From Felixounavirus LF110P4: 64,000 nucleotides of DNA. Each line of letters starts with the position of its first letter. Position 1 is the stretch's first letter. The stretch lies in the sequence record OZ035790.1; one strand, 5' to 3'. The notes under the pieces are model-generated. The model made no database searches. It saw nothing but the letters and a program-made list of their open reading frames with translations, and was not told the DNA's origin. Position numbers and translations under genes: made by a program. Shown one piece after another: positions 11,287 through 29,063 of the stretch.

Positions 11287-19305
<8,019 letters not shown>

Positions 19306-26710: not shown

Positions 26711-27094
26711 TCAGATACCTGTGCAGCTTCTGTTTTCTAAGAAATACTCAACACCATACATGGCTTTTTGCATCAAATCTTCTTTAAACTGAATACGATG
26801 ATTGAGCATAGTTTGTACATCAATATCGTCATGGTGTTTCTCTTTAATATTTGCAGATTGTAGGAAATACTCTGCAAGAACACGATACTGATAGTCAGTT
26901 ACCTTATCAGTCATCTCTGTTAAAGACTCTTCAGAGATTGGTTTCAGTAGCTCACCATTAGCTAGAGCAACACCTTTTACAATCTGGCAAGTATCTTCTG
27001 GAACACCTGACAAGTCCACATTTGGGAGTTCTGTTGCATTGACTGGTAAATTCATTGCCATAACCATTGCAGCAGCTAATAAAATCTTTTTCAT
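26711..27094 (-). CDS. secreted (periplasmic) protein of unknown function
   Basis: 127 aa; N-terminal Sec signal peptide MKKILLAAAMVMAMNLPVNA; has its own promoter. Confidence 0.55.
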   Translation of the reverse strand: MKKILLAAAMVMAMNLPVNATELPNVDLSGVPEDTCQIVKGVALANGELLKPISEESLTEMTDKVTDYQYRVLAEYFLQSANIKEKHHDDIDVQTMLNHRIQFKEDLMQKAMYGVEYFLENRSCTGI

Positions 27095-27132: not shown

Positions 27133-27167
27133 AGTATAAAAATAAGCTATAACACCTGACTTGTCAA
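27133..27167 (-). promoter_or_regulatory. sigma70-like promoter (TTGACA-17-TATTTT, TATACT further downstream)
   Basis: minus-strand ttgaca at 27167-27162, ~40 nt upstream of the 27094 start codon. Confidence 0.45.
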
Positions 27168-27189
27168 CAGATTTTATAGCTTATTTGGC

Positions 27190-27592
27190 AGATTTTTTAT
27201 AAGGCTACTGCCATCCTTCCATACCCTACCTTACCACACCTAACCATACCTAACCAAACTACACCATACAATACCTTATTAAAAGACCCTCTTAAAGACC
27301 TTTTAAAAAGGTAAGTCTCATTTTAATGTAGCTCCGATTAACTACCCACACCTTACCTCACCTGACCTGACCTGACCCTACCTAGCATTACCGTGCCACA
27401 CCTCACTTAAAAACCCTCTTAGAAGACTCTTAAGTGATGTAATCGGATTTTAATGTAGCTCCGATTAACTACCCGCACTTTACCAAACCTCACCCTACCC
27501 TACCAGACCTTACCTAACCGCGCCGTACCTCATTAAAAGACCCTCTTAAAGACCTTTTAAAAAGGAGCCTCCGAAGAGGCTACCTAGTCAAC
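27190..27592. repeat. composite non-coding repeat region A (NNACC pentamer tracts, conserved hairpins, 33-nt and 37-nt direct repeats)
   Basis: no ORF; exact 33-nt repeat at 27279-27311 and 27533-27565; 37-nt block 27403-27439 recurs at 28969-29005; pentamer tracts 27211-27276, 27344-27402, 27471-27531. Confidence 0.8.
27560..27587 (-). terminator. intrinsic terminator after the 27593 gene
   Basis: minus-strand agcctc-ttcg-gaggct hairpin followed by TTTTT. Confidence 0.6.
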
Positions 27593-28033
27593 TTAGAAAG
27601 GTTTTCTACGTTGCTTGTTAATGTTAGCTTTCATAGCAGCTAAATGGTTTTGCTGTTCAATTAGTCGTGAACGTTCTTGATGGCTAAGTACCATAGTGTT
27701 CACATTCTCAATCGCTTGAGTGGCTTGCTTTAAAGCACGACCAATCTTACCAGACATTTTACGTTTTGCAATAGTTGCTTGATGCTTAGGTTCAACCACA
27801 CGATAACCAACACCCATTGAAGCAACCAGATAAATCTTCTCTTCTTTAAGAAGCTTCTCAATAAACTTCTCAAGTCGATTTAAGCGTGTAAGCGCATAAG
27901 CCTTCATTTCATCTTCGTACTTAACAATGTCACCTTGATAAGTTGGCTTCACAATACCTAAGAAGGTGTCCATCTCAGAATGTGATACAGTGTCACCGTA
28001 ACTAAACTTTGCTGCTAATGCTTTTGTATTCAT
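27593..28033 (-). CDS. hypothetical protein (repeat-flanked cassette gene 2)
   Basis: 146 aa, basic C-terminus; start is 2 nt from upstream stop. Confidence 0.5.
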   Translation of the reverse strand: MNTKALAAKFSYGDTVSHSEMDTFLGIVKPTYQGDIVKYEDEMKAYALTRLNRLEKFIEKLLKEEKIYLVASMGVGYRVVEPKHQATIAKRKMSGKIGRALKQATQAIENVNTMVLSHQERSRLIEQQNHLAAMKANINKQRRKPF

Positions 28034-28035
28034 AA

Positions 28036-28641
<606 letters not shown>

Positions 28642-28654
28642 TTAGTTGATTGTT

Positions 28655-29005
28655 AAGTTGTTTGTAAAGAACCCTCAATAGAAGACTCTTTAGAAACTTG
28701 GTAGATTTTTAACGTGGCTACTACCATCCACCCACACTTTGCCATACCTCACCGCGCCTTACCCGACCTGGCTGCACCTTGCCTTGCCAAACATCACTTA
28801 AAAACCCTATGAGATACCCTATCGAGTATAATTTAAAGGCTCTTAAGTGATGTAAGTCTCATTTTAATGTAGCTGAGACTAACTACCCATACCCTACTTT
28901 ACCTTGCCGTACCGTACTTTACCCGACCACACCGGACAATACTTAACCCTACCTCACCCGACCGGACATCACTTAAAAACCCTCTTAGAAGACTCTTAAG
29001 TGATG
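28655..29005. repeat. composite non-coding repeat region B (NNACC pentamer tracts plus hairpins with 10-bp arms)
   Basis: hairpins with catcacttaa / ttaagtgatg arms at 28792-28852 and 28967-29005; stem-loop 28855-28880; pentamer tracts 28724-28790 and 28884-28966. Confidence 0.8.
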
Positions 29006-29035
29006 CTGGTGAGTACCCGTTGGTCTATGCTGTTC

Positions 29036-29063
29036 AGTATACTCACCAAATTTTCTATGTCAA
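29036..29063 (-). promoter_or_regulatory. sigma70-like promoter (TTGACA-16-TATACT) driving the repeat-containing leader and cassette
   Basis: minus-strand ttgaca (29063-29058) and tatact (29041-29036), immediately downstream of the ligase stop. Confidence 0.45.

What the first reader, a model, noticed from the sequence alone, without database searches (positions are those of the whole stretch)
27190..27592. Composite non-coding repeat region A downstream of a two-gene cassette
About 400 bp with no ORF, in a genome that is otherwise tightly packed. It holds (i) an exact 33-nt direct repeat attaaaagaccctcttaaagaccttttaaaaagg at 27279-27311 and 27533-27565; (ii) a 37-nt hairpin block tcacttaaaaaccctcttagaagactcttaagtgatg at 27403-27439 that recurs exactly at 28969-29005; (iii) a second stem-loop module at 27441-27466 with a degenerate copy at 27314-27339; and (iv) three A/C-rich tracts with 5-nt periodicity. 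This modular, duplicated architecture is not explained by any terminator or promoter and is confined to this locus in the window. Candidate functions are a structured RNA, an iteron-like protein-binding array, or a recombination/mobility scar.
Basis: seen in the sequence. Interest (0 to 1): 0.8.

Follow-up and report, generated by a model that had tools for sequence, protein, structure and literature searches.

The report
VIPR guide-RNA array of a Felix-O1-like phage
The repeat region encodes three guide RNAs of a recently described phage system called VIPR, a CRISPR-like, RNA-guided DNA-binding system that this Felix-O1-like phage appears to aim at a satellite element living in E. coli chromosomes; it is real and remarkable biology, but it was described in two 2026 preprints.

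Summary
The modules are not separate curiosities. They are three tandem ~127-nt units in region A (27187-27565), plus two more units and a partial box in region B (28660-29006), all read on the minus strand.

Each unit has three parts:
- a strong RNA hairpin, here called the "box";
- a ~32-nt 3' tail with a hairpin and pseudoknot.

The two genes between the regions are 97% and 99% identical to Vipr and Vap1 of Escherichia phage SUSP1. SUSP1 is the type example of VIPR systems (bioRxiv 10.64898/2026.04.26.720920 and .720927).

Tests run here agree with that assignment:
- All but one of the nine published GGY-contact residues are present.
- Tail pairing covaries across related phages.
- Under the published "1-nt skip" rule, and under no other spacing, all five guides match an ~11-kb satellite island found in 404 of 5,426 E. 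coli genomes. One guide covers the satellite's promoter -10 region.

Verdict: already known. Still open are the role of the inter-guide box hairpins, one guide with a broken tail, and loss of the cassette in about half of related phages.

The parts
29036..29063 (-). Sigma-70-like promoter (TTGACA-16-TATACT, 11 of 12) just downstream of the DNA ligase stop. It probably drives the upstream vrRNAs and vipr-vap1.
   Evidence: Promoter activity is inferred, not shown.
28967..29006 (-). Box hairpin V1, 5' of vrRNA1.
   Evidence: Folds to 19 bp with 5 G.U pairs, dG -19.8 on the minus-strand RNA against -9.7 on the plus strand.
28887..28966 (-). vrRNA1 guide region: 16 YNNGG pentamers (NN = CC CG GA AG TA AT CC GT CG AA AC AC AA AA AG AT).
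   Evidence: Best 1-nt-skip match is 25/32, in the 185-aa satellite gene, with the skipped base at the codon wobble position.
28855..28886 (-). vrRNA1 3' tail (gamma type: stem AGTCTCA/TGAGACT, pseudoknot GTAG/CTAC).
28791..28853 (-). Long box hairpin 5' of vrRNA2. It is V1 with a ~25-nt apical insertion.
28732..28791 (-). vrRNA2 guide region: 12 YNNGG pentamers (TT AA AA GC CA CG AA GC GA AT AA GT).
   Evidence: Matches 20/24 in the satellite HTH gene, with the skipped base at the wobble position.
28700..28731 (-). vrRNA2 3' tail (delta type: stem GGTAG/CTACC, pseudoknot GTGG/CCAC).
28660..28699 (-). Partial, degenerate box between vrRNA2 and vipr. It overlaps a weak promoter-like site at 28639-28668.
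28036..28623 (-). vipr: a 195-aa RAMP-fold, guide-binding protein (ATG at 28623; the mechanical ORF starts at GTG 28638).
27593..28033 (-). vap1: the 146-aa accessory protein.
   Evidence: 144/146 identical to the SUSP1 protein. phrog_5926, function unknown. In the preprint vap1 enhanced protection.
27566..27581 (-). Intrinsic-terminator-like hairpin (UUCG tetraloop) after vap1. Its T-run is the start of the next box.
27528..27565 (-). Box hairpin V2, 5' of vrRNA3.
27473..27532 (-). vrRNA3 guide region: 12 pentamers (GA AC GC TA AA CT AG AG GA TT AA GC).
   Evidence: Matches 20/24 in the satellite large serine recombinase gene.
27441..27472 (-). vrRNA3 3' tail (beta type: stem AATCGGA/TCCGATT, pseudoknot GTAG/CTAC).
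27401..27439 (-). Box hairpin V1, 5' of vrRNA4.
27346..27405 (-). vrRNA4 guide region: 12 pentamers (GA GT AC AA TA AG CA CA CA GA AA GT).
   Evidence: Matches 22/24 in a 107-aa satellite gene.
27314..27345 (-). vrRNA4 3' tail, a chimera (5' arm AATCGGA of beta type, 3' arm TGAGACT of gamma type) in which 3 of 7 stem pairs are broken.
   Evidence: It is the only such tail among the 54 units examined in 13 loci.
27273..27312 (-). Box hairpin V2, 5' of vrRNA5.
27219..27278 (-). vrRNA5 guide region: 12 pentamers (AA AT AT GT TT TA AT TA GT AA AG AT).
   Evidence: Matches 23/24 over the -10 hexamer and start region of a TTGACA-17-TAGTAT promoter in the satellite.
27187..27218 (-). vrRNA5 3' tail (alpha type: stem GGCAG/CTGCC, pseudoknot AAGG/CCTT).
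27139..27186 (-). Inverted repeat (19-nt arms, 89% complementary) enclosing the -35 of a TTGACA-17-TATTTT promoter for the next gene (26711-27094). It marks the end of the VIPR locus.
   Evidence: (I3).

Best explanation
Region A is the downstream guide-RNA array of a type II VIPR (Viral Interference Programmable Repeat) locus of the SUSP1 clade, carried by a Felixounavirus. The whole locus, read on the minus strand, is: promoter, vrRNA1, vrRNA2, vipr, vap1, terminator, vrRNA3, vrRNA4, vrRNA5.

Each vrRNA has a guide of 12-16 YNNGG pentamers followed by a conserved 3' hairpin-pseudoknot tail.

Mechanism, as shown for the 97%-identical SUSP1 system in the two preprints and inferred here by homology:
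- One Vipr protomer binds each pentamer and sequesters the GGY bases.
- The NN dinucleotides are presented for pairing.
- The filament pairs with double-stranded DNA that reads NNxNNx..., skipping every third base.
- Bound DNA is transcriptionally silenced. No PAM is needed.

Shown here by computation: the five guides of this phage point at an ~11-kb satellite island of E. coli that carries tape-measure and baseplate genes close to the phage's own. Targets include the satellite's promoter and several of its genes, so the array most likely suppresses a parasite of the phage.

The A/C-rich tracts are the guides seen on the complementary strand. The box hairpins are strong, minus-strand-specific RNA hairpins. 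I infer that they act in maturation or 3'/5' end definition of the individual vrRNAs.
For: Identity to the type system:
- Vipr is 190/195 identical and Vap1 144/146 identical to the SUSP1 proteins.
- SUSP1 is the representative locus in bioRxiv 10.64898/2026.04.26.720920. There ~100-nt vrRNAs were sequenced, co-purified with Vipr and reprogrammed.

Fold and contact residues:
- H17, E71, M72, R138, C173, D177, W178 and R179, named as GGY contacts in 10.64898/2026.04.26.720927, are all present.

Guide anatomy:
- The five guides have 16, 12, 12, 12 and 12 YNNGG pentamers on the gene strand.
- GGT is conserved and NN is variable across the window and the Moogle, Si3 and SUSP1 loci.

Tail structure:
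- In 22 distinct tails, 90% of cells pair, against 27-37% when the partners are slid.
- 9 of 11 pairs carry changes on both sides.
- A G.U wobble in several beta-type tails is compatible only with the minus strand as the RNA.

Targets:
- 404 of 5,426 E. coli genomes carry an island 85-95% identical to window 12330-14078.
- Across five such islands, 1-nt-skip matches are 25/32, 20/24, 20/24, 22/24 and 23/24.
- Skip 0, 2 and 3 stay at a background of 15-20 per 24 or 32 positions.
- None of 200 NN-order permutations reaches the observed score for any guide.
- No self-target is found in the window.
- Guides from 12 other Ounavirinae loci behave the same way.

Generality: 30 of 120 IMG/VR loci found by a bare GGTNN x6 scan encode a Vipr homologue beside the tracts.
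Against: - Nothing here shows expression, processing or Vipr loading in this phage. That rests on homology to SUSP1.
- A terminator-like hairpin lies between vap1 and vrRNA3-5, and no convincing promoter was found for the downstream array, so how those three guides are transcribed is unexplained.
- vrRNA4 has a broken tail stem.
- The best vrRNA1 match is 78%, below the preprint's 80% cut-off.
- The vrRNA3 and vrRNA4 targets do not place the skipped base at the wobble position.
- Tail covariation rests on only four tail types, so it reflects few independent events.
- The two papers are preprints.
Confidence: 0.93

Rival explanations
1. The repeats are mainly a recombination substrate. In this view regions A and B are direct repeats that let a mobile two-gene cassette move in and out of phage genomes, like the PeSL cassettes of T4-type phages, and they have no function of their own.
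For: - Si3-type relatives lack both genes. They carry a single hybrid unit whose left end matches region A and whose right end matches region B.
- 117 phage records carry the cassette, of about 230-236 that match the locus.
- Unit copy number varies between relatives.
- vrRNA4 has a chimeric tail, as expected from recombination between units.
Against: - GGY is conserved while NN varies freely, which points to selection on the tract itself.
- The tails covary.
- The guides have specific 1-nt-skip targets.
- The same RNAs are expressed and functional in SUSP1.

Recombination is a consequence of the repeats, not their purpose.
Confidence: 0.04
2. The tracts act at the DNA or transcript level without a guide function. 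Options considered were an R-loop-prone replication origin (G-rich RNA on a C-rich template), an iteron-like array, or Rho-loading (rut) sites for antisense plus-strand RNA.
For: - Extreme GC skew, with a G-rich, C-poor sense strand.
- Location among replication genes such as ligase and polymerase.
- A tract length of ~60 nt would fit a Rho hexamer footprint (my own knowledge).
Against: - No initiator gene or AT-rich unwinding element was identified.
- The scan finds only one weak plus-strand promoter-like site, inside vipr.
- None of these ideas explains the hypervariable NN, the specific satellite matches at exactly one skip spacing, or the co-occurrence with Vipr homologues in unrelated viruses.
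Confidence: 0.02
3. The locus is a decaying, non-functional VIPR remnant in this particular phage.
For: - One tail is broken.
- Several pentamers have lost GG, leaving 10-12 of 12-16 intact.
- Relatives have lost the genes altogether.
Against: - Both ORFs are intact and 97-99% identical to the functional SUSP1 proteins.
- All but one of the nine published contact residues are kept.
- All five guides still match satellite targets above every permutation control.
- The preprint also notes internal degeneracy in functional vrRNAs.
Confidence: 0.03

Closest known systems
VIPR type II system of Escherichia phage SUSP1 (bioRxiv 10.64898/2026.04.26.720920, and the structural companion 10.64898/2026.04.26.720927)
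   Same: - Same gene pair, at 97% and 99% protein identity.
- Same position, between DNA ligase and the downstream early genes.
- Same vrRNA build: YNNGG repeats plus a hairpin-pseudoknot tail.
- Same tail types.
- Same class of natural target (an E. coli satellite) under the same 1-nt skip rule.
   Different: - The array layout here is 2 upstream plus 3 downstream guides, against 1 plus 3 reported for SUSP1.
- The guide NN sequences differ.
- One tail is chimeric.
- The host genome is a Felixounavirus rather than a Suspvirus.
Class 1 CRISPR-Cas effector backbones (Cas7, Csm3, Cmr4 with crRNA)
   Same: - The protein oligomerises along a guide RNA with periodic base flipping.
- A variable guide is capped by a conserved structured handle.
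- An array of alternating conserved and variable segments.
   Different: - No cas1/cas2 or other cas genes, and no classic repeat-spacer array.
- 5-nt rather than 6-nt periodicity.
- Only 2 of every 5 guide bases pair, and the target is read with a skipped base.
- No PAM.
- It is phage-encoded and aimed at another mobile element.
TRAP binding sites in Bacillus trp leader RNA (11 (G/U)AG triplets spaced by 2-3 nt; from my own knowledge)
   Same: Roughly 5-nt periodic conserved triplets with free spacers, read by one protein subunit per repeat.
   Different: TRAP is a closed ring with an unrelated fold. Its spacers carry no information, and it regulates its own transcript rather than guiding DNA recognition. 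This was an early lead and was dropped once VIPR was identified.
PeSL mobile regulatory cassettes of T4-type phages (from my own knowledge; not checked in the library)
   Same: Repeated intergenic modules flank small gene cassettes that are present or absent among close relatives, consistent with recombination between the repeats.
   Different: PeSLs are promoter plus stem-loop modules with no guide function. Here the repeats are the functional RNAs.

Membership tests
VIPR system (type II, SUSP1 clade) | A Vipr protein of ~20 kDa with a RAMP fold (RRM core, glycine-rich loop, thumb). The clade is defined by >90% identity to SUSP1 Vipr. | tested here: met
   - 190/195 identical to SUSP1 Vipr.
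- AF2 pLDDT 95.7.
- The C-terminal motif [12 protein letters not shown] is conserved in 46 homologues.
VIPR system (type II, SUSP1 clade) | Residues that grip the GGY motif in the cryo-EM structures: H17, D177, R138, W178, R179, E71, M72, C173. | tested here: met
   All eight are present at those positions. Position 175 is V in both this protein and the SUSP1 translation, whereas the preprint text says T175.
VIPR system (type II, SUSP1 clade) | A minimal two-gene locus (vipr plus vap1) with long flanking intergenic regions and no cas genes or CRISPR array. | tested here: met
   ORF map. Vap1 is 144/146 identical. The neighbours are DNA ligase and small hypothetical genes.
VIPR system (type II, SUSP1 clade) | vrRNAs made of 9-16 YNNGG tandem repeats, with conserved GGY and hypervariable NN, on the gene strand. 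| tested here: met
   Five tracts of 16, 12, 12, 12 and 12 pentamers. GGT is invariant and NN variable across loci. The tracts occur nowhere else in the 64 kb.
VIPR system (type II, SUSP1 clade) | A conserved 3' tail of about 40 nt with a hairpin and pseudoknot. | tested here: met
   90% of cells pair, against 27-37% in the slid controls, and 9 of 11 pairs change on both sides. Four of the five tails in the window fit. vrRNA4 does not.
VIPR system (type II, SUSP1 clade) | Expression as ~100-nt RNAs that co-purify with Vipr. | not testable with these tools
   Shown for SUSP1 by small-RNA sequencing and pull-down. No expression data exist for this phage.
VIPR system (type II, SUSP1 clade) | Targets follow the 1-nt skip rule (NNxNNx...), natural targets lie on a satellite phage, and there is no self-targeting. 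| tested here: met
   - Matches of 20-25 out of 24-32 positions occur only at skip 1, all inside the satellite islands L133-L137.
- 0 of 200 permutations reach the observed score for each guide.
- The best self-match is at background level.
- vrRNA1 reaches only 78%.
VIPR system (type II, SUSP1 clade) | Binding represses transcription of the target. | not testable with these tools
   Shown for SUSP1 with GFP and lambda cro/cI assays. Here there is only the suggestive placement of the vrRNA5 site over a -10 hexamer.
CRISPR-Cas array | Identical short repeats alternating with unique spacers, adaptation genes (cas1/cas2), and contiguous spacer-protospacer matches. | tested here: not met
   - No cas genes other than the single RAMP homologue.
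- Contiguous (skip 0) matching gives only background.
- Rfam finds nothing.
Iteron-type replication origin | Directly repeated double-stranded DNA binding sites next to an initiator gene and an AT-rich unwinding element. | tested here: inconclusive
   No initiator was identified nearby, and the strand-specific G.U pairing points to RNA. Replication itself was not tested.

The most novel reading that the evidence does not exclude
Parts of the locus are not covered by the preprint text I could read, and they may hide something new.

(a) The conserved 16-19-bp box hairpins between guides could be the maturation signal of type II arrays. They could be cut by a host double-strand RNase or by Vipr itself. 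They sit in the place that hammerhead ribozymes occupy in other VIPR types.

(b) Recombination between the repeated tail and box modules could be the way guides are shuffled between phages. It could also be how the whole vipr-vap1 cassette is lost, leaving orphan guides that could work in trans with the Vipr of a co-infecting phage.
Probability: 0.25. Interest if true: 0.45.

Novelty: already known. Interest (0 to 1): 0.3.

Why it matters
VIPR is a newly described mode of RNA-guided DNA recognition. It uses a gapped code in which 2 of every 5 guide bases are read, and it has been proposed as older than CRISPR.

This window is a clean natural example:
- The cassette is complete.
- It carries five guides.
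- All five map to a satellite island present in about 7% of complete E. coli genomes.
- One guide sits on the satellite's promoter.

That supports the phage-versus-satellite reading on an independent genome. It also shows that a reader of raw sequence can pick such loci out.

For annotation, 117 phage records in the collection carry these genes labelled only as hypothetical proteins. In the records inspected, the arrays were marked at most as repeat_region or terminator.

The finding does not add a new kind of system.

Tried and rejected
**Ideas dropped once the VIPR preprint surfaced**
- Physical genome end or terminal repeat, like the T7 SRL/SRR arrays. UAB_Phi87 has a 608-bp terminal repeat, but its record starts in the tRNA region, which has no match in the window. 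Not pursued further.
- TRAP-like ring binding, a G-quadruplex, a primase hot spot, Rho rut sites, an R-loop origin, and tandem Shine-Dalgarno-like standby sites. Each was considered from the anatomy and dropped when the literature search surfaced the VIPR preprint.

**Searches that found nothing useful**
- Rfam: only three chance-level matches below the gathering score, none inside either repeat region.
- The Felix O1 genome paper lists other repeats but not these.
- The PhageMaP paper on Bas63 says nothing about this region.
- BLAST of region A against E. coli genomes: no match, so the satellites do not carry near-identical tails.
- Exact IMG/VR scan with 10 NN of vrRNA3: no hit.

**Box as a general phage promoter: rejected**
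- The box motif is confined to the VIPR locus.
- Its best -10 candidate, TTTAAT, lacks the conserved A at position 2 (my reading).

**Methods that failed or were too unspecific**
- Single-sequence AF2 of Vipr gave a useless model, pLDDT 44.
- A bare GGTNN x6 scan is not specific. Many hits are pure microsatellites or contig-end repeats.
- Covariation in the box hairpin could not be tested, because the two box families barely vary within themselves.

Full report
**What is in the sequence**

The window is a Felix-O1-like myovirus genome (Ounavirinae, Felixounavirus).
- Region 26700-29100 matches 236 phage records, mostly at 90-99% identity.
- The window is colinear with Escherichia phage ECML-1, which opens at the large terminase gene.
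- All genes around the finding are on the minus strand.

- The direct repeat is 34 nt and lies at 27278-27311 and 27532-27565, one base off the stated coordinates.
- The 37-nt block is exact at both stated positions. None is expected by chance in 100 shuffles.
- A period-5 ACC scan of the whole window, both strands, finds tracts only at three places in region A and two in region B.
- GC skew there reaches -0.76.

The repeat finder and an alignment show what the modules add up to: a composite ~127-nt unit present three times in tandem in A. Two longer units plus a partial one lie in B.

Read on the transcribed minus strand, each unit has three parts:
- a hairpin, here called the box;
- about 60-80 nt of NNGGT pentamers;
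- a second stem-loop with a conserved loop.

**How the identification was reached**

Database annotation of relatives was no help. It offered only repeat_region, DR_4, terminator and hypothetical protein. The Felix O1 genome paper does not mention these repeats, and Rfam has nothing.

Two observations changed the picture.

First, Salmonella phage Si3 and similar relatives lack the two genes between regions A and B. They keep one hybrid unit, with its left end like A and its right end like B. So the repeats and the cassette belong together.

Second, an exact scan of IMG/VR for six GGTNN pentamers returned more than 120 viral contigs. Many unrelated ones carry several tracts of 10-14 pentamers with free spacers, arranged in punctuated tandem arrays. 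Some end just upstream of a start codon.

A constant tract "quantum" with conserved GG(T/C) and free NN suggested one protein subunit per pentamer. A literature search on pentanucleotide repeats then found the answer.

**The known system**

bioRxiv 10.64898/2026.04.26.720920 (25 June 2026) describes VIPR systems. Their components and behaviour are:
- a phage-encoded ~20-kDa RAMP homologue (Vipr);
- an accessory gene (vap);
- ~100-nt vrRNAs built of 9-16 YNNGG repeats (conserved GGY, hypervariable NN) followed by a conserved 3' tail, which forms a pseudoknot in the SUSP1 clade;
- recognition of double-stranded DNA that reads NNxNNx... (the "1-nt skip rule"), without a PAM;
- transcriptional repression of the bound target.

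In the SUSP1 clade, 18 of 20 identified targets lie on an E. coli satellite phage that shares structural-gene homology with SUSP1. The representative locus is Escherichia phage SUSP1, which I had already fetched as L007.

The companion preprint 10.64898/2026.04.26.720927 gives cryo-EM structures.
- One Vipr protomer binds each repeat in a right-handed filament.
- The GGY bases are flipped out and gripped by named residues.
- The NN bases are presented for pairing.
- The 3' pseudoknot is resolved in the maps.

**Membership tests run here**

1. Proteins.
   - The 195-aa product of 28036-28623(-) is 190/195 identical to SUSP1 Vipr.
   - The 146-aa product of 27593-28033(-) is 144/146 identical to SUSP1 Vap1.
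   - Pfam finds nothing, and PHROGs assigns only families of unknown function.
2. Fold.
   - A single-sequence model failed.
   - With 46 homologues out of 519 found, the model reached pLDDT 95.7.
3. Contact residues.
   - H17, E71, M72, R138, C173, D177, W178 and R179 are all in place.
4. Guides.
   - Five tracts of 16, 12, 12, 12 and 12 YNNGG pentamers lie on the gene strand.
5. Tails.
   - 54 units from 13 Ounavirinae loci give 22 distinct tails of four types.
   - With a hairpin-plus-pseudoknot structure, 90% of cells pair, against 27-37% when partners are slid.
   - 9 of 11 pairs show changes on both sides.
   - Because there are only four tail types, the number of independent events is small.
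   - In several beta-type tails a G-C pair is replaced by G.U on the minus strand. On the plus strand that would be an A.C mismatch, which fixes the RNA sense.
6. Targets.
   - No site in the window itself matches any guide above background.
   - Megablast of the structural module (1-23500) against complete E. coli genomes found a chromosomal island in 404 of 5,426 genomes. Its tape-measure and baseplate genes are 85-95% identical to window 12330-14078.
   - Five such islands were fetched. Each is ~11 kb, is usually bounded by a small and a large serine recombinase gene, and they sit at three different chromosomal sites.
   - Matches at skip 1:

| Guide | Best match | Target |
|---|---|---|
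| vrRNA5 | 23/24 | -10 hexamer and start region of a TTGACA-17-TAGTAT promoter |
| vrRNA4 | 22/24 | a 107-aa gene |
| vrRNA1 | 25/32 | the first, 185-aa gene of that operon |
| vrRNA2 | 20/24 | an HTH gene |
| vrRNA3 | 20/24 | the large serine recombinase gene |

   - Skip lengths of 0, 2 and 3 stay at a background of 15-20.
   - None of 200 NN-order permutations per guide reaches the observed score.
   - The skipped base falls on the wobble position for vrRNA1 and vrRNA2, but not for vrRNA3 and vrRNA4.
   - Guides from 12 other Ounavirinae loci behave the same way. About half reach 80% or more against just these five islands, and only at skip 1.

As an independent check of the tract-protein link, 30 of the 120 IMG/VR loci from the bare pentamer scan encode a Vipr homologue within the stored flank. 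These include nearly all the multi-tract arrays.

**How the locus probably works**

Steps shown for SUSP1 are inferred here by homology.
- A strong sigma-70-like promoter at 29063-29036 sits upstream of vrRNA1 and vrRNA2, followed by vipr and vap1.
- A terminator-like hairpin follows vap1 (27581-27566).
- vrRNA3-5 come next, then an inverted repeat around the next promoter (27139-27186) closes the locus.
- Vipr protomers coat each guide, one per pentamer. The filament then binds satellite DNA and blocks its transcription.
- The placement of vrRNA5 over a -10 element fits a repression mechanism.

How vrRNA3-5 are transcribed past the terminator is not explained.

**What remains open**

- On the minus-strand RNA they fold into hairpins of 16-19 bp with 3-5 G.U pairs, at dG -12 to -20 kcal/mol.
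- On the plus strand they reach only 10-13 pairs, at -6 to -10 kcal/mol.
- The motif occurs only in this locus.
- The preprint text I could search mentions hammerhead ribozymes between guides in other VIPR types. It says nothing on processing in type II.
- A maturation or end-defining role is my inference. Within-family variation was too low to test covariation.

vrRNA4 has a chimeric tail with three broken stem pairs, unique among the 54 units.

The cassette is present in 117 phage records at 90-99% DNA identity, out of about 230-236 records that match the locus. The arrays themselves diverge to 75-97% identity and vary in unit number.

**Verdict**

The feature is a member of a system published as preprints in April-June 2026, nearly identical to its type example. 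Interest is therefore low to moderate.

Noticed in passing
L010 (Salmonella phage Si3, NC_041922.1) 2392-2518; compare window 27187-29006: Si3-type Felixounaviruses lack vipr and vap1. They keep one orphan vrRNA-like unit between DNA ligase and the 127-aa gene: its left end is like region A and its right end like region B. Only 7 of 13 pentamers keep GG, and the unit has no satellite match above background (19/26). About half of the records that match the locus lack the cassette.
   Followed up: partly
window 27314-27345 (-): The tail of vrRNA4 joins the 5' arm of one tail type (AATCGGA) to the 3' arm of another (TGAGACT), breaking 3 of 7 stem pairs. It is the only such tail among 54 units in 13 loci, yet its guide still matches a satellite gene at 22/24. 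It could be a recombination product or an assembly chimera.
   Followed up: partly
window 12330-14078; loci L133-L137 (E. coli chromosomes CP029328, CP077477, CP122681, CM149554, CP033401): 404 of 5,426 complete E. coli genomes carry an ~11-kb island. Its tape-measure 3' end and baseplate gene are 85-95% identical in DNA to the phage's own. It is usually flanked by a small and a large serine recombinase gene, and it is inserted at different sites (in mdtG, between yciI and tonB, in a DUF72 gene). This is presumably the SUSP1 satellite of the preprint. No GGY tracts were found in these five copies.
   Followed up: partly
window 27139-27186: A 19-nt inverted repeat (89% complementary) brackets the -35 hexamer of the TTGACA-17-TATTTT promoter of the next gene and is followed by a T-run. 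It could act as an operator or as a terminator for the vrRNA array.
   Followed up: no
window 29006-29063: The strong promoter-like site after the ligase gene has its -10 hexamer (TATACT) inside a hairpin, GGTGAGTA...TACTCACC, with a 24-nt loop. This hairpin is conserved in Si3 and Moogle.
   Followed up: no
L047 2217-3404 (+), L035 3396-3841 (-), L056 11519-12038 (-) (IMG/VR contigs): Unrelated viral contigs carry 7-13 tandem guide-like units of 64-85 nt. Each has 10-14 or more NNGGY pentamers and a short conserved punctuation (for example AAGGAATGGTTTAATGAATTTAATTT, GGCTAATGGGT, TTTGGCAGGT). All have a Vipr homologue nearby. The tails are quite different from those in the Ounavirinae.
   Followed up: partly
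L015, L016, L021, L029, L032, L036, L038, L058 and others (IMG/VR): A nearly identical stretch, AGGTTAGGTTAGGTAAGGTTAGGTTAGGTAAGG, recurs in many ~40-kb viral contigs. No Vipr homologue lies in the stored flank. Its nature (coding pentapeptide repeat, iterons or something else) was not examined.
   Followed up: no
window 28623-28638: The mechanical ORF for vipr starts at GTG 28638. The ATG at 28623, preceded by GGAG, matches the 195-aa protein annotated in relatives and used in the preprints.
   Followed up: yes
Vipr residue 175 (window 28036-28623, and L007): The structural preprint names T175 as part of the pyrimidine pocket. Both this protein and the SUSP1 translation have V at position 175. 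This may be a numbering or text slip in the preprint.
   Followed up: no
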